From NCBI GenBank assembly GCA_035639235.1, contig DASQYL010000229.1:7-64006 (forward strand): a DNA stretch of 64,000 bases, read 5' to 3'. The notes under the pieces were generated by a model. The model was not told the DNA's origin, ran no database searches, and saw nothing but the letters and a program-made list of their open reading frames with translations. Made by a program: the position numbers and the translations under genes. The stretch is from Pyrinomonadaceae bacterium. GTDB lineage: Bacteria; Acidobacteriota; Blastocatellia; Pyrinomonadales; Pyrinomonadaceae. Below, one piece after another: positions 6,990-57,336 of the stretch (position 1 is the first letter of the stretch; every line of letters begins with the position of its first letter).

Positions 6990-7514
6990 TTACGCCGACC
7001 TTGACCGTCGACGTTTTTCCTCGCCGAAATCGGCGAGTCGCCGGAGGCGATTGGGATGTTCCTTGGGCTCGCGTGTCACGGCGAGCACCGGTTCGAGTTT
7101 CGCGCCTTTGGCAATCAAGCCGGTGCCTTCGGCCGTTGGCTTGACTCGGGCCAGCAAGACGCGGGCGACTCGTTTGGGCATCAGCATCGGAGCAATCGTC
7201 ACAACTGATTCAGCGAGTTGTACGATGTCTCCGCCGCCACGCCAGTGTTCGCGCACGATGGCGTCGTCCGTGTGATCGATTAATCGCAACAGAGTGAGCG
7301 AAATCAAAAACAAATCGTCGATCTGGCCGACGAATGGAATCATGTCGGGTATGAAGTCGAAAGGAATGATCGCGTAGATCACCGCTGCGGCAAACAACGC
7401 GCGCTCAGTGCGCGGCACACGCTTATCGACCATCAGCTTGGCGCATAGAATCACCATGTTCGGAAGGAACATTAGTAGGTTCTTCATGCGGCTCTTCAAC
7501 TCACTCTTGCGCAT
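6990..7514 (-). CDS. YkvA/DUF1232 family membrane protein
   Basis: DFIPDMIPFVGQIDDLFLISL is the DUF1232 signature. Confidence 0.75.
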   Translation of the reverse strand: MRKSELKSRMKNLLMFLPNMVILCAKLMVDKRVPRTERALFAAAVIYAIIPFDFIPDMIPFVGQIDDLFLISLTLLRLIDHTDDAIVREHWRGGGDIVQLAESVVTIAPMLMPKRVARVLLARVKPTAEGTGLIAKGAKLEPVLAVTREPKEHPNRLRRLADFGEEKRRRSRSA

Positions 7515-7534: not shown

Positions 7535-7693
7535 CGGTGGTCAGTTGTCAGTTGTCCTTGTAATACTGCGTTCACAGTCTAAACGAGCGCAAATTCAGTA
7601 GCAAGCTTCTCGCATCTTCCAGTCTCATGATAAATTGCAGCCTGGCTTAACGATTAACGACTGACCACCGGCCACTGACCACTGACCACTGCC
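7535..7693. repeat. inverted oligo-repeat pair (ggtggtcagttgtcagttgtcc ... gactgaccaccggccactgaccactgaccactgcc) flanking ~100 nt
   Basis: Arms at 7535..7556 and 7659..7693 are near reverse complements built from tgacca/tggtca oligomers. The element ends at the pta start codon. Confidence 0.7.
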
Positions 7694-8704
7694 GTGTCCA
7701 TTCTCGATCAAATTCGCCAGCGCGCTGCCGCAAACCCTCAGCATATCGTGCTGCCCGAGGGCGAAGACCCGCGCACCGTGGTTGCGGCGAGCATGGCGGC
7801 GCGCCAAAGGCTGGCGCGCATTACGATCCTCGGCGATGAACAAAAGGTTCGCGAGGCGGCGCGACAATCGGGCGCGGATCTCGGCGGCGTCGAGTTGATC
7901 GATCACACGCGCGCGAATGATTTTGAAAAGCTGGTCTCCGTGCTTTACGACGCGCGCCGCGCGAAGGGCATGACCCTCGATGAAGCACGGACCGCGCTGC
8001 GCGATCCGCTATACTATGGCAACCTGATGGTGCGCGCCGGCCGCGCCGACGGCTCAGTCGCGGGCGCGACGAACACGACTTCGCACACTGTCAGAGTCGC
8101 GCTGCACTGCATCGGCGTCCGGCCGGGCTTCAAGATCGTTTCAAGCTTTTTCTTGATGGCCCTGCGCGATCCGAACTTTGGGCAGAACGGCGCGATGATC
8201 TATGCGGACTGTGGCGTCGTGATCGAACCCAGCGCGGCTGAACTCGCAGAGATTGCCATCGCTTCGGCTGGTTCGTGTCGCGCATTGCTCGCCGCCGAAC
8301 CGCGCGTGGCGATGCTTTCGTTTTCCACGAAGGGCAGTGCCAAGCATCGCTTGATCGACAAAGTTGTCGAAGCCACGAAGACGGTTCGCGTGCGCGCACC
8401 TGATTTGGAAATCGATGGCGAGTTGCAAGCCGACGCGGCGCTGGTGCCGGCGATTGCGCAATCGAAGACGCCGGGTTCGCCGATTGGAGGCCGCGCAAAC
8501 GTTCTCATCTTCCCCGATTTGCAGTCAGGCAACATAGCCTACAAATTGACTGAACGTCTCGCCGGCGCGACGGCGATCGGGCCGATTCTCCAGGGACTCG
8601 ATCGCCCCGCTAACGATCTTTCCCGCGGCTGTAAGGCTGAAGATATAGTCGACGCGATCGCGATTACGGCGGTGCAGGCGCAAGCGCGCAAAGGCGCATC
8701 GTAG
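7694..8704 (+). CDS. pta: phosphate acetyltransferase (short form)
   Basis: [12 protein letters not shown], the SHTVR region and [13 protein letters not shown] are hallmark Pta motifs. 336 aa. Confidence 0.93.
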
Positions 8705-21625: not shown

Positions 21626-22138
21626 ATGGACTCGCCCAACACATCTGATGCAACTTCGTCGTCAAGGCCGCTGGACGCTGACATGTGGCATCGCAGTAAG
21701 TATGCCATCAGCACCGATCCCTCCCGGCTCGATCTCGATCTGATTCACAATTATTTGTGCAACGAATCGTATTGGGCGAGCGGCCGTTCACGCGAAGTCG
21801 TCGCGCGCTCGATTGAGAATTCGCTTCCGTTCGGCATCTATTGCGGCGATGAACAAGTCGGATTTGCGCGGGTGGTCACCGACTACGCAACGTTTGCCTG
21901 GGTCGCTGACGTATTCGTGCTGCCGGAACATCGTGGCCGCGGTTTGTCGAAGTGGCTGATGGAAATCATCATCGCGCATCCGCGCTTGCAGGGATTTCGT
22001 CGTTGGGTTTTATCGACGAAGGATGCGCACGGATTGTACGAACGATTTGGATTTATCAAACTGCATCGTCCCGAACGTTGGATGGAACGGCCCGACCCGA
22101 ATATAAAAGAGAGTCCTGATTATTGGAAGAAAGATTGA
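21626..22138 (+). CDS. GNAT family N-acetyltransferase
   Basis: The acetyl-CoA binding motif region VLPEHRGRGLSKWLM (R/Q-x-x-G-x-G/A). Confidence 0.8.
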   Translation: MDSPNTSDATSSSRPLDADMWHRSKYAISTDPSRLDLDLIHNYLCNESYWASGRSREVVARSIENSLPFGIYCGDEQVGFARVVTDYATFAWVADVFVLPEHRGRGLSKWLMEIIIAHPRLQGFRRWVLSTKDAHGLYERFGFIKLHRPERWMERPDPNIKESPDYWKKD

Positions 22139-22198
22139 TTCATTGATTCATTGATTGATTGACTCAGTCAATGACTCAATGAGCCAATGACTCAATGC
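22136..22198. repeat. imperfect palindrome built from cattgatt / aatgactca oligomers
   Basis: ttgattcattgattcattgattgattgactcagtcaatgactcaatgagccaatgactcaatg, centred near 22165 and ending at the gpmI start. Confidence 0.7.
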
Positions 22199-23767: not shown

Positions 23768-24883
23768 ATGGCGGCCACCGCTGAGACAATCGATCAATCA
23801 CGTTCGCGAGCGATTTCGCTCCGTTGGATCATCAACGCGCGCGAAGATCTCATCTGGTTCATTGGTTCGGTCGCATCCAGCTACCTGCTGCTGATGCTTT
23901 ATGTCACCGGAATACTGCCGCTCATTCCGATGGTTGCCGGCTGGGCCATCCTCATTGACGCGCCGCACGTCTTCGGAACTTTTTCACGCACCTACTTCGA
24001 CAAATCGGAATGGAAAACGCGCAAGCGGCTGATGCTGGGGTCGCTGCTGTTCTTCGTGGTTGGCCCAACCATGGTCCTGCTCGGCGCCGGTCTTTCGTTC
24101 TTCTTCGTCGCCGCGCTTTGGGCCTATTACCATCTCGTGAAACAGCACTACGGGTTCATGGTGCTCTATAAAAAGAAGAACAACGATCTCGCGCCGATTG
24201 ACAACGCGCTCGATCGTCTGCTTCTGATGTTCGCGTTCAATTGTCCTTTCGTAGCGTTCATCGCTAACGATACCGCGGCGATGGCCCGCGTGCCGATTGT
24301 CTTGCGTGGCGGCGTCAAGGCGGTCGCGCTGATTCTCCTGATCGGAACCATCGTCCTGGGCATTGGCTGGCTCATTCGACAAGTGCAGCGAATGATCTTG
24401 CGCCAGCCGCTCAACATTCCGAAATATCTTCTGTTGGCTGCCGCGATTCCGATGCATTGGATCGCTTTGTTAACGCCGATGCCCGCAAAACCGATTGCGC
24501 TGGTCGCGATTCTGACGATCTATCACAACCTCCAGTATCACCGGCTGATTTGGTTTCACAATCAAAAATATGGCGCGCAGGATGCGCGCGCACCGCAGGC
24601 AGGGATGCCTGCGCTCCGTTACGGCCCGGCAGCTTTCATTTCTCGCCGGCTGATCTATTACCTGGCGTTTGGGATCCTCTTCGGCGTCATCTACCAGGGA
24701 CCACGTCAATATCTCGGCTATCTGAATCTGCACACTGGCGATTCACCCGCCGCCTTAACCCGGTCCGTTCAACTCGGCATCGCTTTTCTCTGGGGCTATG
24801 CCTTCATTCATTATTACCTCGATTCAAAAATCTGGCGCGTGCGTCGCGATCCGGCGGCGGGAGCGGCTCTGAAGATGTCCTAG
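23768..24883 (+). CDS. hypothetical polytopic membrane protein with His-containing motifs
   Basis: GGGAGGG RBS before ATG 23768. Eight or more hydrophobic segments. YYHLVKQHYG and YHNLQYHRLIWFHN motifs. Family not recognised. Confidence 0.6.
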   Translation: MAATAETIDQSRSRAISLRWIINAREDLIWFIGSVASSYLLLMLYVTGILPLIPMVAGWAILIDAPHVFGTFSRTYFDKSEWKTRKRLMLGSLLFFVVGPTMVLLGAGLSFFFVAALWAYYHLVKQHYGFMVLYKKKNNDLAPIDNALDRLLLMFAFNCPFVAFIANDTAAMARVPIVLRGGVKAVALILLIGTIVLGIGWLIRQVQRMILRQPLNIPKYLLLAAAIPMHWIALLTPMPAKPIALVAILTIYHNLQYHRLIWFHNQKYGAQDARAPQAGMPALRYGPAAFISRRLIYYLAFGILFGVIYQGPRQYLGYLNLHTGDSPAALTRSVQLGIAFLWGYAFIHYYLDSKIWRVRRDPAAGAALKMS

Positions 24884-24951
24884 TGGCGAGCGTTTGGTTG
24901 CGCGCCATCATTAACGGTTCTAGAATTCAAATCGCATTGACAACCAAATAA

Positions 24952-25127
24952 GTTTCGGGGGAGCCAAAGTCGACAGCGACCGAGGCTGAGAGTCGGCACA
25001 TTTTCGAATGCCGATTTCCAATTGTCGACTTTTCGCGAGCATTTCAATCGGCAATCGGCAATCACAAAATCGGCAATGTCCGTGACCCCTTGAACCTGAT
25101 ACGGTTAAGACCGTCGAAGGGAGAAAC
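24952..25127 (+). promoter_or_regulatory. TPP (THI-box) riboswitch aptamer, carrying a 93-nt insertion
   Basis: P1 is GTTTC (24952..24956) / GAAAC (25123..25127). Core reads GGGGAGCC..(P3 gtcg-acag-cgac)..GGCTGAGAG, then after the insertion ACCCcttGAACCTGATacGGtTAAgaCCgtcGaAGGGAG. It lies upstream of thiC. Confidence 0.85.
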
Positions 25128-25176
25128 AGCCATCGCCGGGGTCCCCAGCGGGGCAGCCCCGCTGGGGTGGCCATGA

Positions 25177-25211
25177 CCGTTCCGTCCTTTGATGGAGCGG
25201 TTTTGTTTTTT
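25177..25211 (+). terminator. intrinsic terminator, likely the riboswitch expression platform
   Basis: 10-bp stem ccgttccgtc / gatggagcgg (2 G-U pairs), loop cttt, followed by ttttgtttttt. Confidence 0.7.
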
Positions 25212-25337
25212 GGAGTGTAGCGATGTAGTTGTTTGGAAGACCCGCGCGCCGAGCCGCGGAGCGGCGGCGGAATTTAGCCCCGGGTGAGCGAGCGAAGCGA
25301 GCGTAACCCGGGGAACCTGAGGTTATATTTTTCCTGA

Positions 25338-27395
<2,058 letters not shown>

Positions 27396-27396
27396 A

Positions 27397-28938
27397 ATGA
27401 TTTTTCGCGAACAATTCGAGAATCTCCGTCTCGGGCCTCTACGAGGTTTGAAACGATGCGATCTGTTGAAGCTCGGTCGAATCAACGTCCTATGCGGAAA
27501 GAACAACACCGGTAAATCGACGCTGCTAGAAGCGGCGTCCAATAAAGCAACGCGAGCTAACGGCCTAACGCCAAGCGATGATTTCGTTGCAGATCTAGTA
27601 AAAGCAAATAACGACCATTTGGATAGACAACACGGGCATTTTGCGCGTGGCCGTCATCTTCGACACTTACTGCCTGACTTATTTCGCGAAGTTATACAAG
27701 CTCGCATGGCTTGGTTCGCGGGGGAAGAGAAAGAATTAGTCGAACTAATAAACAAAAAAGTGGCGGGTCCCAATCACGCCGAACTCCGACAAGCTATTCA
27801 TTCCACAGCCATAGTTCAGGATCTTGAATCCAGTTTCACGTACCCGACCGTCGAAGCTATCTACATTCCTCCAATTCGTAGGATTGAGGTCTCAGGAAAG
27901 ATCGCTACGGCTGAAGAACCTCAGCCAGAGGGTAAAGGGGTCGTGAATCGTCTATTCCATCTACGCAACCAGCCTCCCGGTAGCGATGGATTGAAGCTGG
28001 CTGCGTCCATCGACAATTCTTTTAAAGAGATTACAGATGGCTTTAGGTTTGGAGTCTTCAGCGAAAAAGAGAATAATTATGCGCTCAAGTTTTCCACGGA
28101 TGAAAAGACTTGGATTCCAGCCGAACACTGCGGCAAAGGGCTGCAAGATCTACTTGTGATTCTCTATTTTGCTCTTTCGAAGACCCGCGGCCTTTTGCTA
28201 ATCGAAGAACCCGAAGTTCATTTGCACCCGGAAATGCAACGCCGTCTTCTGGCGCATCTTAGATCGAATACGGAATCGCAGTACATTTTCTCAACGCACT
28301 CAAATGTCTTCTTGGATGGGGCTTTGACGGACCGCGTGTTTCTGACGAGATTTGACGCAGAGGTTCTCGTGAGCGATGCAACGTCCAAGACGACGTTCTT
28401 GCACGATCTTGGGTATTCTCCAGTCGATAACCTTGTTTCAGATCTCATTATTCTCGTTGAAGGACCATCCGATGTTCCGGTGATCGAAGAGTTCTTAAAG
28501 AAGCGGGGTCTTTATGAGACGTACAGCATAAAGTTGTGGCCCCTTGGCGGCGATATAATGGCAAAAGCTGAAATCGACCTGACCGTTTTTGCACAGTCCC
28601 ATCATGTTTTGGCTCTAGTCGATGGCGATCCTGGAAGTGGCAAAGTGCGCAAGAGATTTCAAACGAAATGTTCTGACCTAAACATTGAATGCGCACGCCT
28701 AAAACGCTACTCGATTGAAAACTACTTCTCGCTTCGCGCGCTGCGCCAGGTTTTTGGTTCTCAAATTCCAGATGCGATTACGGAGATTCTTGGAAATGAA
28801 AAGCTTGAGAGTCAGATCGGTATCAACGTGAAGTCCAACAACCGTTCTATAGCGCGAGAAATGAACTTGGAAGAAATCGCAGGCACAGACTTGGGTAAGT
28901 TTTTCGACCGAGTCGAACAAGTGCTGCGAGGTGTTTGA
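27397..28938 (+). CDS. OLD-family / PARIS-like nuclease: ABC-type ATPase fused to a TOPRIM domain
   Basis: Walker A GKNNTGKST. Walker B LLLIEEPEVHLHP. H-loop FSTHS. TOPRIM E (LIILVEGPSD) and DxD (LVDGDPG). RYSIENYF. ATG lies 1 nt after the thiC TAA. 60-nt samples give 43-47% GC against 57% in thiC. Confidence 0.8.
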   Translation: MIFREQFENLRLGPLRGLKRCDLLKLGRINVLCGKNNTGKSTLLEAASNKATRANGLTPSDDFVADLVKANNDHLDRQHGHFARGRHLRHLLPDLFREVIQARMAWFAGEEKELVELINKKVAGPNHAELRQAIHSTAIVQDLESSFTYPTVEAIYIPPIRRIEVSGKIATAEEPQPEGKGVVNRLFHLRNQPPGSDGLKLAASIDNSFKEITDGFRFGVFSEKENNYALKFSTDEKTWIPAEHCGKGLQDLLVILYFALSKTRGLLLIEEPEVHLHPEMQRRLLAHLRSNTESQYIFSTHSNVFLDGALTDRVFLTRFDAEVLVSDATSKTTFLHDLGYSPVDNLVSDLIILVEGPSDVPVIEEFLKKRGLYETYSIKLWPLGGDIMAKAEIDLTVFAQSHHVLALVDGDPGSGKVRKRFQTKCSDLNIECARLKRYSIENYFSLRALRQVFGSQIPDAITEILGNEKLESQIGINVKSNNRSIAREMNLEEIAGTDLGKFFDRVEQVLRGV

Positions 28939-28990: not shown

Positions 28991-29086
28991 AATCTGTCGC
29001 CCGCTAAAGCGGGCTTTTGATTTGTGGTGGGCTTGGTTTCCCAGCACTGAAGTGCTGGGCTATTTTCAAGCGTCCGCTACGCGGAC
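28991..29086 (+). repeat. ~96-nt three-hairpin direct repeat, copy A
   Basis: aatctgtcgcccgctaaagcgggc..cccagcactgaagtgctggg..gtccgctacgcggac. The first hairpin plus tttt may also terminate the OLD gene. Copy B is at 30691..30786. Confidence 0.85.
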
Positions 29087-29131
29087 GAAATCAGCTTGTC
29101 AGGGGACATCGGCCGAGCGTAATTTTTCCCC

Positions 29132-30511: not shown

Positions 30512-30690
30512 GACCACTATCGTCGCGACGTGAATTTAGCCCGACGTTTCAACGCCGGGATCACGCGGGATCAATCGAACCTTGTCGCATCAGCGACAAA
30601 TGAATCTCTCGCGACGAACAATTCATTCGCCCTTTCTTTCCGGCCTTGAAAGGCCGGGCTAGATTCAATCGTCGCTTCGCGACGACAATC

Positions 30691-30913: not shown

Positions 30914-31186
30914 CTGCATTTCCAATCGATCCAAATGCATTTTCCCTTGATGGAAATACACCGCAAGTCGATGGAAATTCATTTCTAATTGATGGGAATG
31001 CATTTGGAATTAATCTGAATGCAGTCGGAATTGATAGAAATGCATTCTGAATTGATTGGAATGCAGCGCGAATCGGTTCGGATGCACTTCTAATCGATCC
31101 GAATGCAGCCCGAATCGATCAAAACGCATTCAGAGTTATTCAAACTCCAGTCCGAATTGACCAGTGTCGATTCTGCGCGGTTCAAC
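30914..31186 (+). repeat. tandem array of 13 exactly phased 21-bp units (weaker periodicity back to about 30848)
   Basis: Unit starts fall at 30914 + 21n with no indels. Consensus is ATGCAttcnGAATCGATnnA. See the findings. Confidence 0.9.
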
Positions 31187-57047: not shown

Positions 57048-57336
57048 TCCAATTACTCCTTGTTCTAAGTATGAGGCTGCATGCCTCTCAGTGGGCCAGA
57101 CACCGAACGGGACGCGTCGGTTACGTCGATGGAGTCAGTACCATCTGCGTCAGCAGATGGAATAAAGGTCATCACGGCTGACGCTCTTGGTCCCACCCGC
57201 TGACGCGGGCGGTACTGACCTCATCCCAATGTGGTTCGCAGACTTGTAACGAGATTCAGATTCCTGGTGTCTAGCCGATTGAGCGCCGAATTTCCTGAGA
57301 TTTTGCGGCGCATTTTCAACAAGAACAGGAAAGATC

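What the first reader, a model, noticed from the sequence alone, without database searches (positions are those of the whole stretch)
24952..25211. TPP riboswitch aptamer split by a 93-nt repeat-derived insertion between CUGAGA and ACCC
**What the sequence shows**
- All conserved aptamer blocks are present: P1 GTTTC/GAAAC, GGGGAGCC, GGCTGAGAG, ACCC, GAACCTGAT and AGGGAG.
- CUGAGA (24986..24991) and ACCC (25085..25088) are normally a few nucleotides apart. Here they are separated by 93 nt.
- The insert contains its own hairpin, tcggca/tgccga at 24993..25014.
- It contains a segment tgtcgacttt (25023..25032) that can pair with aaagtcgaca (24967..24976) inside P3.
- It also contains three copies of aatcggcaat (25046..25077), which is typical of dispersed oligo-repeats.
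- A clean terminator follows at 25177..25211.

**Possible interpretations**
- The aptamer tolerates a large insertion at J3/2-P2.
- The insert provides an alternative pairing that changes the switch.
- The riboswitch is compromised.
Basis: partly seen in the sequence, partly recalled or inferred. Interest (0 to 1): 0.62.

Follow-up and report, generated by a model that had tools for sequence, protein, structure and literature searches.

The report
TPP riboswitch with heptad-repeat P3a extension
This is an intact thiamine-pyrophosphate riboswitch in front of thiC whose optional side stem (P3a) has grown into a ~90-nt hairpin built from 7-nt repeats, a feature shared by many related soil Acidobacteria and not a disruptive one-off insertion.

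Summary
All TPP aptamer blocks are present, and CUGAGA and ACCC lie 93 nt apart. Rfam RF00059 scores 56.8 bits (cut-off 54.3) over 24947-25139 and puts the extra sequence in the loop of P3a, the known optional peripheral stem. It does not split a junction.

The segment is an imperfect hairpin.

It is not private to this genome. In the window's own clade of soil Blastocatellia-like leaders, 41 of 63 thiC aptamers have a 52-122 nt P3a of this heptad-armed type. Twelve of them align at 80% column identity. All 34 aptamers outside the clade have 43 nt or less at this site.

Arm sequence types match between arms within lineages, and relatives differ by indels of about one or two heptads. Both fit growth by slippage with compensation.

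Hairpins with the same unit also occur outside riboswitches, so "repeat-derived" is partly right.

A conserved antiterminator/terminator pair follows the aptamer, so this is most likely a working TPP OFF switch. The 10-nt P3/P3a complementarity is real but unique to this sequence.

It is a new variant of a known kind, of moderate interest.

The parts
24921..24926 (+). -10-like hexamer TAGAAT of the likely thiC-leader promoter (inferred)
   Evidence: The same TTCTAGAAT motif lies about 25-30 nt upstream of P1 in the L142 and L116 leaders and in L098, L160 and L100 (sequences printed). The simple sigma-70 scan did not report it, so this rests on inference only.
24952..25127 (+). TPP riboswitch aptamer, from the P1 5' strand GUUUC to the P1 3' strand GAAAC
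   Evidence: RF00059 scores 56.8 bits against a gathering score of 54.3, E = 1.5e-10, covering model positions 1-105. All conserved blocks match the model consensus.
24993..25082 (+).
   Evidence: The covariance model places 85 extra nt in the P3a loop. On its own the segment folds as a single imperfect hairpin: -25.9 kcal/mol, 29 bp, z = -2.05. It is orthologous to the P3a of L123, L090, L116 and others (A1, 80% column identity).
25000..25027 (+). 5' arm: four heptads ATTTTCG, AATGCCG, ATTTCCA, ATTGTCG (clade consensus ATTGCCG-like)
   Evidence: Shown by alignment A1. Lag-7 self-identity is 0.40 in the window and 0.47 on average in the clade, against a background of about 0.18.
25046..25078 (+).
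   Evidence: Found. An inverted repeat pairs 25001-25024 with 25045-25068 at 79% complementarity.
25115..25191 (+). Antiterminator helix: the aptamer 3' strand (25115-25138) pairs with the terminator 5' arm region (25168-25191)
   Evidence: A fold of the partial transcript gives this helix, and the pairs are listed. Duplex energy is -15.5 kcal/mol against -11.0 for the terminator arms. The same alternative pairing appears in L116, L106, L094, L083 and L001.
25138..25170 (+). GC-rich palindrome GGGGTCCCCAGCGGGGCAGCCCCGCTGGGGTGG at the tip of the antiterminator (a second, separate repeat-type insertion)
   Evidence: It occurs once in the window. L114 and L124 carry an identical 33-nt copy at the same site and L088 a close copy there. 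L001, L090 and L140 have it after the terminator, and L139 has it about 650 nt upstream of the aptamer.
25175..25212 (+). Intrinsic terminator: 12-bp stem followed by a T-run
   Evidence: Reported by the terminator scan. The fold gives -19.9 kcal/mol. The motif CCGTTCCRTCC-loop-GGTGGAGCGG-T-run is found in 60 of 63 clade leaders by the pattern search, and the other three have near matches.
25368..27395 (+). thiC (phosphomethylpyrimidine synthase), the regulated gene
   Evidence: Pfam ThiC_Rad_SAM scores 613.5 bits and ThiC-associated 102.6 bits. The protein is 86% identical to ThiC of a Blastocatellia genome assembled from a metagenome.

Best explanation
**What it is**
- The region is an intact TPP riboswitch controlling thiC in a soil acidobacterium related to Blastocatellia and Pyrinomonadaceae.
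- The 93 nt between CUGAGA and ACCC are the optional peripheral stem P3a.
- In this lineage P3a has expanded into an imperfect hairpin of about 30 bp, with about four AUUGCCG-type heptads on the 5' arm and about four complementary CGGCAAU-type heptads on the 3' arm.

**Why the ligand pocket should be unaffected (inferred)**
- P3a is predicted to stack on P2 and project away from the ligand pocket (PMC2258182).
- The extension should therefore leave TPP sensing intact.

**How the switch most likely works (inferred from sequence and folding)**
- With TPP bound, P1 and P4 hold the strand CGAAGGGAGAAAC, and the conserved terminator (25175-25212) stops transcription.
- Without TPP, that strand pairs with the terminator's 5' arm as an antiterminator, and thiC is transcribed.

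**Origin of the extension**
- It is inherited within the clade and is not a recent insertion.
- It behaves like an expansion segment. It changes length by about one or two heptads at a time (indels of about 9 and 16 columns), its two arms keep matching sequence types, and it has been lost or collapsed to 12-15 nt in some close relatives.
- It belongs to a wider type of heptad-armed hairpin that also occurs outside riboswitches. The ancestral event may therefore have been acquisition of such a hairpin at the P3a tip, followed by slippage and compensation.
- Its most likely role is neutral or mildly modulatory.
For: **Identity and placement**
- RF00059 scores 56.8 bits, above the 54.3 cut-off, with the extra sequence in the P3a loop.
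- The placement is the same in L001 and L002 and in all 20 of 20 metagenome relatives tested, which score 49.5-66.3 bits.
- P3a is optional in the family and there is room for it in the crystal structures (PMC2258182).

**Conservation**
- In the clade, 41 of 63 aptamers have a P3a of 52-122 nt, median 95. All 34 aptamers outside the clade have 43 nt or less.
- Twelve orthologues align at 80% column identity.

**Structure**
- In the corrected extraction, nearly all the long P3a segments fold as one hairpin of about 17-46 bp. Three fold with two or three hairpin loops.
- z-scores run from about -1 to -10. The median over all rows is -4; that set includes eight mis-extracted rows, corrected.
- The nested structure pairs 87.5% of cells, against 15-45% when partners are slid.

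**Repeats**
- Lag-7 identity is 0.47 and lag-14 is 0.44, against a background of about 0.18.
- Arm sequence types match within sequences: GCC/GCC in 10, GCG/GCG in 3, TTT/TTT in 3.
- Native arm pairs fold better than chimeric ones: -0.405 against -0.313 kcal/mol per nt.
- L084, L123 and L100 carry one-armed gaps of about 9 and 16 columns.
- L141, L120 and L126 form a graded series of 37, 58 and 64 nt.

**Expression platform**
- The terminator is conserved in 60 of 63 leaders.
- The antiterminator appears in the window and in 5 relatives.
- thiC is intact.

**Non-riboswitch copies**
- L142 469-560 holds one.
- A second contig in the only metagenome run that holds the window carries one.
- 23 IMG/VR contigs carry the array.
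Against: - No experiment or RNA data is available; no RNA-seq run holds the locus.
- The window's hairpin is one of the weaker ones: z = -2.05 with dinucleotide shuffles, -2.6 with simple shuffles, and a looped-out heptad.
- Within the 12 orthologues there is almost no classical covariation, only 2 pairs with changes on both sides. Support for the helix therefore rests on comparison between subfamilies and on complementarity.
- The GAUU/AAUC core is shared by lineages whose ThiC N-termini are only about 70-80% identical. The same unit also occurs in unrelated contexts. Both are more than pure neutral slippage predicts and hint at a constraint I cannot name.
- The hairpin folds about equally well on both strands, -35.8 against -35.0 kcal/mol. 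Selection at the RNA level is therefore not demonstrated.
- The ThiC tree is a neighbour-joining tree on 267 residues and is poorly resolved. Ancestral gain with repeated loss cannot be separated from repeated gains.
Confidence: 0.78

Rival explanations
1. The heptad-armed P3a helix is a functional module and not tolerated ballast. It could be a long double-stranded RNA platform recognised by a trans-acting factor, such as RNase III or a sequence-specific RNA-binding protein. That factor would control turnover of the leader or add a second regulatory input to thiC.
For: - The GAUU/AAUC core and the layout of about four heptads per arm are kept across lineages whose ThiC N-termini are only about 70-80% identical.
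- Lengths cluster between 80 and 110 nt.
- Several relatives have near-perfect helices of 36-45 bp, such as L112 and L145. RNase III typically cuts helices of that size (my own knowledge).
- The same hairpin type recurs outside riboswitches, as would be expected of a recognised motif.
Against: - 21 of 63 clade members, including the window's nearest ThiC neighbours L094 and L083, have only a 12-15 nt P3a with the same platform. The module is therefore dispensable.
- The window's own helix is interrupted by bulges.
- No candidate factor has been identified.
- The fold shows no strand asymmetry.
Confidence: 0.15
2. The heptad arrays act at the DNA level. Direct and inverted 7-bp repeats would form an operator or centromere-like array bound by a DNA-binding protein, as ribbon-helix-helix proteins such as omega of pSM19035 bind heptad arrays (from memory). 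Bound protein would give a roadblock inside the thiC leader.
For: - Contiguous heptads occur in direct and inverted orientation.
- One-armed arrays with no inverted partner exist elsewhere, for example L116 228-252 and many IMG/VR contigs.
- The palindrome is equally good on both strands.
Against: - In 41 leaders the arrays always sit exactly at the tip of an RNA stem, and the two arms stay complementary through changes of sequence type.
- No neighbouring regulator gene is conserved with them.
- Presence and absence vary among close relatives.
Confidence: 0.04
3. In this particular organism the extension rewires the switch. The 10-nt stretch 25023-25032 pairs with the P3 loop 24966-24975, unfolds P3 and creates a ligand-incompetent alternative state.
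For: - There is a perfect 10-bp complement of -12.5 kcal/mol.
- Shuffling gives p of about 0.005.
- The alternative fold lies only 4.1 kcal/mol above the minimum free energy fold.
Against: - It is not conserved. All 40 relatives have complements of 6 nt or less, at chance level.
- Pair probability in the ensemble is about 1%.
- GUCGAC is self-complementary, which inflates such matches.
- P3 is transcribed and can fold before the competing strand appears (inference).
Confidence: 0.03
4. The riboswitch is compromised or decaying because of the insertion.
For: - The bit score is low, 56.8 against 67-75 for the short-P3a Pyrinomonadaceae relatives L004-L010.
- The 5' arm heptads are degenerate.
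- A second palindrome is inserted in the expression platform.
Against: - The score loss is the model's insertion penalty. All conserved positions match.
- 41 independent lineages keep the same architecture together with an intact thiC and terminator.
- The inserted palindrome sits at the tip of the antiterminator, where it does not break either alternative helix.
Confidence: 0.02

Closest known systems
TPP riboswitch (THI element, Rfam RF00059) with the optional P3a stem-loop
   Same: - It has the same P1-P5 architecture and conserved nucleotides, and it sits upstream of thiC.
- The extra sequence lies at the known optional P3a site. That stem is present in 552 of 907 sequences and is predicted to stack on P2 (PMC2258182).
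- The terminator-type expression platform is also typical.
   Different: - P3a here is 52-122 nt long (about 90 nt in the window), against the usual 12-30 nt.
- It is built from complementary tandem heptads.
- The insertion penalty pushes many members to or below the Rfam cut-off: 7 of 20 relatives score under 54.3 bits, and the window's copy was missed in the default whole-window scan.
rRNA, SRP RNA and RNase P expansion segments that grow by 'compensatory slippage' (Hancock & Dover 1990, as described in PMC1888808)
   Same: - It is a helix-tip extension of a conserved structured RNA.
- It is made of short low-complexity repeats on both strands, and relatives differ by short indels of about one or two repeat units.
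- The core fold is untouched.
   Different: - It occurs in a bacterial riboswitch aptamer, not in a stable RNA.
- The repeat unit is a well-defined heptad shared across lineages and also found in non-riboswitch hairpins. Pure local slippage does not predict that.
Dispersed bacterial palindromic or short tandem repeats: REP/BIME-type elements and the cyanobacterial STRR heptanucleotide repeats (both from memory), and the tandem heptanucleotide elements of Geobacter metallireducens (PMC2700814)
   Same: - These are small intergenic elements that form hairpins or consist of tandem heptamers.
- Copies occur at unrelated sites (L142 upstream copy, a second contig in the metagenome run, IMG/VR contigs).
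- A separate GC-rich palindrome in the same leader behaves like a REP element.
   Different: - Copy number per genome is unknown and looks low. There is no second copy in the 64-kb window, and only 2 non-aptamer arrays in 244 kb of clade DNA.
- No associated transposase was examined.
- Here the element is embedded in, and co-inherited with, a functional RNA stem.

Membership tests
TPP riboswitch (RF00059) | Covariance-model score at or above the curated gathering score | tested here: met
   The score is 56.8 bits against 54.3, E = 1.5e-10, covering model positions 1-105. The whole-window search at the default gathering threshold did not report it.
TPP riboswitch (RF00059) | Conserved ligand-contact and junction sequences (CUGAGA; ACCUGAU; CG-AGGGA) and helices P1-P5 | tested here: met
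   All of these align to the model consensus with posterior probabilities at the maximum outside P3 and P3a. The sequence was read directly.
TPP riboswitch (RF00059) | Located in the 5' leader of a thiamine biosynthesis or transport gene | tested here: met
   thiC starts 240 nt downstream of P1. Pfam ThiC_Rad_SAM scores 613.5 bits.
TPP riboswitch (RF00059) | An expression platform with mutually exclusive structures coupled to P1 | tested here: met
   There is a terminator and an antiterminator that uses the P4/P1 3' strand. The terminator is conserved in 60 of 63 relatives. This is computational evidence only.
TPP riboswitch (RF00059) | Binds TPP and represses the downstream gene in response | not testable with these tools
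   This needs in-line probing or ITC and transcription or reporter assays. No RNA-seq run holds the locus.
Expansion segment evolving by compensatory slippage | Tandem short-unit repeats on both strands of a helix at the periphery of a conserved RNA | tested here: met
   Lag-7 and lag-14 identity are 0.47 and 0.44 against a background of 0.18. The commonest 7-mers of the two arms are reverse complements of each other.
Expansion segment evolving by compensatory slippage | Indels of repeat-unit size and matching changes of both arms among relatives | tested here: met
   Alignment A1 shows one-armed gaps of about 9 and 16 columns, roughly one and two heptads. Arm sequence types are matched. Native arm pairs fold better than chimeric ones. 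L141, L120 and L126 form a graded 37/58/64-nt series.
Dispersed palindromic repeat (REP- or MITE-like element) | Multiple copies at unrelated intergenic sites of the same genome | tested here: inconclusive
   L142 has a second copy about 250 nt upstream of its aptamer. One further contig of similar depth occurs in the only run that holds the window. There is no second copy in the 64-kb window. No complete genome was available to count copies.
Dispersed palindromic repeat (REP- or MITE-like element) | Insertion signatures (target-site duplication, empty sites) or an associated transposase | tested here: inconclusive
   The short P3a GTCCATTAGGAG of L083 and L094 equals the two ends of the long L088 P3a. 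That fits an empty site or a deletion equally well. No duplication longer than 1 nt is visible. Transposases were not searched for.

The most novel reading that the evidence does not exclude
The heptad-armed hairpin (CATTGCCG-ATTGCCR-...-loop-...-YGGCAAT-CGGCAATG, about four units per arm) may be a discrete, sequence-constrained genetic element. It would colonise or grow at hairpin tips in soil Acidobacteria and some phage-like contigs, and it would be recognised by an unknown trans-acting factor. Its capture in P3a would then give a whole clade of TPP riboswitches a second, protein- or RNase-mediated input, or a built-in leader-decay site.
Probability: 0.15. Interest if true: 0.65.

Novelty: new variant of a known kind. 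Interest (0 to 1): 0.42.

Why it matters
- **Tolerance of the aptamer.** A riboswitch aptamer can carry an expansion-segment-like helix of 30-45 bp at P3a across a whole bacterial clade. That gives a natural series, from 12 to 122 nt, for testing how peripheral helices affect TPP riboswitch folding, kinetics and leader turnover.
- **Annotation.** These riboswitches sit at or below the Rfam cut-off: 7 of 20 relatives fall under it, and the window's copy was missed by the default whole-window scan. thiC regulation in soil Acidobacteria is therefore probably under-annotated.
- **The repeats themselves.** The recurring heptad-armed hairpins and the REP-like GC palindrome in the same leader point to repeat families in these little-studied genomes. 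I found no description of them in the papers searched.

Tried and rejected
- **RNAalifold on A1.** It returned only an out-of-register 11-bp helix, pairing heptad 4 with the last 3' heptad, because the heptads are interchangeable. I used a nested structure mapped from the L116 fold instead.
- **G-U against A-C mismatch asymmetry and plus/minus strand energies.** These were meant to separate RNA-level from DNA-level constraint. The result was inconclusive: G-U exceeds A-C on both strands, and the energies are nearly equal.
- **A looser aptamer pattern.** It over-extended eight matches. I corrected this with a stricter shortest-match extraction.
- **A fuzzy-pattern search for the GC palindrome.** It timed out and was replaced by blastn-short.
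- **Constraint fold enforcing P1 and P2.** I set the P1 partner one base off, so I do not use that energy (-46.8).
- **RNA-seq or metatranscriptome evidence.** None is available. Only one DNA run holds the locus.
- **Literature searches.** I looked for the heptad sequence, for riboswitch with heptanucleotide repeats, and for riboswitch expansion segments. None described this feature.
- **Mechanical ORF context of the 23 IMG/VR hits.** Many arrays lie at gene boundaries, but the high-GC contigs give too many spurious ORFs to say more.
- **Dispersed oligo-repeat within the window.** This is rejected for the 64 kb examined: there is no second copy.
Full report
**1. What is in the sequence**

The region 24947-25139 (+) contains every conserved block of a TPP riboswitch aptamer:
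- P1 is GUUUC (24952-24956) with GAAAC (25123-25127).
- GGGGGAGCC is at 24957-24965, CUGAGA at 24986-24991 and ACCC at 25085-25088.
- GAACCUGAU and AGGGAG (25118-25123) are present.

A whole-window Rfam scan at gathering thresholds reported only a tRNA and two Acido-Lenti-1 RNAs. A scan of 24850-25400 alone gave RF00059 at 56.8 bits against a gathering score of 54.3, E = 1.5e-10, over the full model 1-105.

The model places 85 unaligned nucleotides inside the loop of the stem that follows CUGAGA. That stem is P3a, and the placement does not fall within a junction.

P3a is a known optional stem-loop. It is present in 552 of 907 TPP riboswitches, is predicted to stack coaxially on P2, and fits the crystal structures (PMC2258182).

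The P3-side decamer AAAGUCGACA lies at 24966-24975, one base from the position given.

The downstream gene 25368-27395 is thiC: Pfam ThiC_Rad_SAM scores 613.5 bits.

**2. The 93-nt segment is a heptad-armed hairpin**

- On its own the segment folds into a single imperfect hairpin: -25.9 kcal/mol, 29 bp, z = -2.05.
- Tandem Repeats Finder reports a period-7 array at 25045-25063.
- AATCGGCAAT occurs three times here and nowhere else in the window, against 0.4 expected.
- Read against relatives, the 5' arm is four heptads: ATTTTCG, AATGCCG, ATTTCCA, ATTGTCG (25000-25027).
- The 3' arm is the complementary series AATCGGC, AATCGGC, AATCACAA, AATCGGC, AATG (25046-25078).

**3. Relatives**

ThiC-guided searches brought in two sets of loci:
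- 80 genome loci, the best being Blastocatellia and Pyrinomonadaceae genomes assembled from metagenomes, at up to 86% identity.
- 80 soil-metagenome loci at 67-81% identity over the N-terminal 300 residues.

cmscan found TPP aptamers upstream of thiC in 13 of the first 14 genome loci. L001 and L002, the closest two, carry 39 and 80 extra nucleotides in the same P3a loop.

A pattern-based extraction over all loci recovered 97 aptamers. The CUGAGA-to-ACCC distance falls into two groups, 3-43 nt and 52-122 nt.
- Within the window's clade, 41 of 63 aptamers have the long form (median 95 nt), 21 have 20 nt or less, and one has 37 nt.
- All 34 aptamers outside the clade have 43 nt or less.
- cmscan confirmed RF00059 with the insertion in P3a in 20 of 20 long-form metagenome loci, at 49.5-66.3 bits. 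Seven of these fall below the gathering score.

Features of the long segments:
- In the corrected extraction, nearly all fold as one hairpin of about 17-46 bp, and three fold with two or three hairpin loops. z-scores run from about -1 to -10. The median over all rows is -4; that call included eight mis-extracted rows, corrected.
- Mean self-identity is 0.47 at lag 7 and 0.44 at lag 14, against about 0.18 otherwise.
- The commonest 7-mers are GCCGATT, TGCCGAT and ATTGCCG in the 5' arm, and AATCGGC, ATCGGCA and CGGCAAT in the 3' arm.

Twelve P3a segments of similar length, including the window's, align at 80% mean column identity. The shared layout is CATTGCCG-ATTGCCA-ATTTCCG-ATTGCCG-ATTTGA-loop-TTC-AATCGGC-AATCGGC-AATCGCA-AATCGGC-AATG.

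The window's segment is therefore orthologous to those of relatives.

**4. Is the helix maintained?**

- On alignment A1, a nested structure pairs 87.5% of cells, against 15-45% when partners are slid by 1-3 columns. The sequences are too similar for classical covariation: only 2 pairs change on both sides.
- Between subfamilies the arms change together. Sequences with GCC in the 5' heptads have the matching GGC in the 3' heptads (10 cases). GCG goes with GCG (3 cases) and UUU with UUU (3 cases).
- Native arm combinations fold better than chimeric ones: -0.405 against -0.313 kcal/mol per nt. The native partner ranks in the top 4 of 35 for 16 sequences.
- Relatives differ by one-armed gaps of about 9 columns (L084) and 16 columns (L123, L100), roughly one and two heptads.
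- One small subclade shows a 37/58/64-nt series with one to two heptads (L141, L120, L126).

These are the hallmarks of compensatory slippage, described for rRNA expansion segments (Hancock & Dover 1990, as summarised in PMC1888808).

I could not show that the constraint acts on RNA and not on DNA. The segments fold about equally well on either strand, -35.8 against -35.0 kcal/mol.

**5. Is it repeat-derived?**

Partly.
- In the 64-kb window there is no second copy.
- In 244 kb of clade DNA, 50 of 56 heptad arrays lie inside extracted aptamers. Of the other six matches, two are aptamer-associated (L099, and L155 at a contig end). The remaining four mark two loci that are genuinely elsewhere.
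- At one of those loci (L142 469-560), a hairpin with four heptads per arm and the same unit sits at the tip of a different, larger palindrome, about 250 nt upstream of that genome's riboswitch.
- The only public run that holds the window is a soil metagenome. It contains one further contig of similar depth (4.8 against 5.37) with inverted arrays of this heptad and flanks that are not a riboswitch.
- An exact scan of IMG/VR for ATTGCCGATTGCCRATTKSC found 23 contigs. My rough expectation by chance is about 1. Several carry complete heptad-armed hairpins (L165, L182, L183, L174), mostly at gene boundaries.

So the P3a extension belongs to a broader type of heptad-armed hairpin. Whether the ancestor acquired such a hairpin at the P3a tip or grew it in place cannot be decided here.

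The short P3a of L083 and L094 (GTCCATTAGGAG) equals the two ends of the long L088 P3a. That fits either an empty site or a clean deletion.

**6. How the switch most likely works**

Downstream of P1 lies a conserved intrinsic terminator, CCGTTCCRTCC-loop-GGTGGAGCGG followed by a T-run.
- The pattern search finds it in 60 of 63 clade leaders, and the other three have near matches. In most it lies 14-19 nt after the aptamer.
- In the window it is at 25175-25202 plus the T-run.

Folding the transcript up to the terminator's 5' arm gives an antiterminator.
- The strand 25115-25138 (CGAAGGGAGAAACAGCCAUCGCC, the 3' strands of P4 and P1) pairs with 25168-25191.
- Duplex energy is -15.5 kcal/mol, against -11.0 for the terminator arms.
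- The same alternative pairing appears in L116, L106, L094, L083 and L001.

Inference: TPP binding locks the P4/P1 strand into the aptamer, the terminator forms, and thiC is switched off. This is the standard transcriptional OFF design, and P3a plays no part in the strand exchange.

In the window a 33-nt GC-rich palindrome (25138-25170) sits at the tip of the antiterminator.
- L114 and L124 carry an identical 33-nt copy at the same place, and L088 a close copy there.
- L001, L090 and L140 have it after the terminator, and L139 has it 650 nt upstream.

**7. The alternative-pairing idea**

- The 10-bp complement between the P3 loop and heptad 4 is real: -12.5 kcal/mol, shuffle p of about 0.005.
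- None of the 40 relatives has more than a chance match of 6 nt or less.
- The fold that contains it lies 4.1 kcal/mol above the minimum free energy fold and has about 1% pair probability.

I regard it as incidental to this sequence.

**8. Verdict**

- The interpretation "aptamer split by an insertion" should be replaced by [quoted passage not shown].
- The riboswitch is most likely functional.
- The extension is dispensable, because close relatives lack it. It is probably neutral or modulatory.
- The conserved heptad unit and its recurrence elsewhere leave room for an unrecognised function or a mobile origin.
- I found no description of such a P3a in the papers searched.
- It is a new variant of a known kind, of moderate interest, with a practical consequence for riboswitch annotation in soil Acidobacteria.

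Noticed in passing
window 25138-25170; also L114/L124 1086-1118, L088 849-875, L001 1346-1380, L090 1136-1166, L140 1073-1105, L139 150-180: A GC-rich palindrome, GGGGTCCCCAGCGGGGCAGCCCCGCTGGGGTGG, sits at the tip of the antiterminator in the window. In relatives it recurs, up to 33 of 33 nt identical, at the same site or at different sites around thiC. It looks like a REP-type dispersed element.
   Followed up: partly
L142 441-600: This is a composite palindrome upstream of the riboswitch. The outer arms are GAGGTCAGTACCACCATGCGGTAGCGGGTGGGTC and its complement, and they enclose a four-plus-four heptad hairpin with the same ATTGCCG unit as P3a. The window has a similar outer-arm palindrome at 57128-57225 (GATGGAGTCAGTACC...GGTACTGACCTCATC).
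   Followed up: partly
window 7537-7561 and 7659-7693: Inverted arrays of a different heptad, GGTCAGT/TGTCAGT against ACTGACC, lie about 100 nt apart. They flank the intergenic region between the divergent ORFs 6990..7514 (-) and 7694..8704 (+).
   Followed up: no
window 22133-22197: A palindrome whose arms are tandem 8-nt repeats, (ATTGATTC)x4 and (ACTCAATG)x4, abuts the ATG at 22195 of a cofactor-independent phosphoglycerate mutase gene (Pfam iPGM_N). It is another repeat-armed hairpin in a 5' leader.
   Followed up: no
window 25432-25463: A perfect 14-nt tandem repeat, AACTCAGAACTGAA x2.3 (period 7 also detected), lies inside the poorly conserved N-terminal extension of thiC and encodes ..[13 protein letters not shown]...
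   Followed up: no
window 30987-31120: A tandem array of 21-nt units (3 x 7; consensus AATTGATCGGAATGCAGCCCG), about 6 copies, has inverted partners at 30914-30941 and 31126-31153. It lies near two Acido-Lenti-1 RNA hits.
   Followed up: no
window 29040-29087, 30639-30684 (+) and 25252-25284 (-): There are two Acido-Lenti-1 RNA (RF01687) matches above the gathering score, at 40.6 and 37.5 bits. A sub-threshold partial match (27.2 bits) lies on the minus strand, inside the thiC leader between the terminator and the start codon. L001 also has one, at 419-463.
   Followed up: no
window 27358-28938: An ORF overlaps the end of thiC and encodes an AAA_15/AAA_21 ATPase, similar to AbiEii or OLD-family proteins. 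It may be a defence-related gene.
   Followed up: no
window 24947-25139; L081, L095, L098, L106, L112, L116, L123: The long P3a costs enough covariance-model score that the window's riboswitch is missed by a default whole-window Rfam scan. Seven of 20 relatives fall below the RF00059 gathering score.
   Followed up: yes
L161-L183 (IMG/VR contigs): Exact ATTGCCG-type heptad arrays occur in 23 virus-classified contigs with GC content of 45-69%, mostly at gene boundaries. Some have inverted partner arrays (L165, L182, L183, L174) and others have a single arm only.
   Followed up: partly
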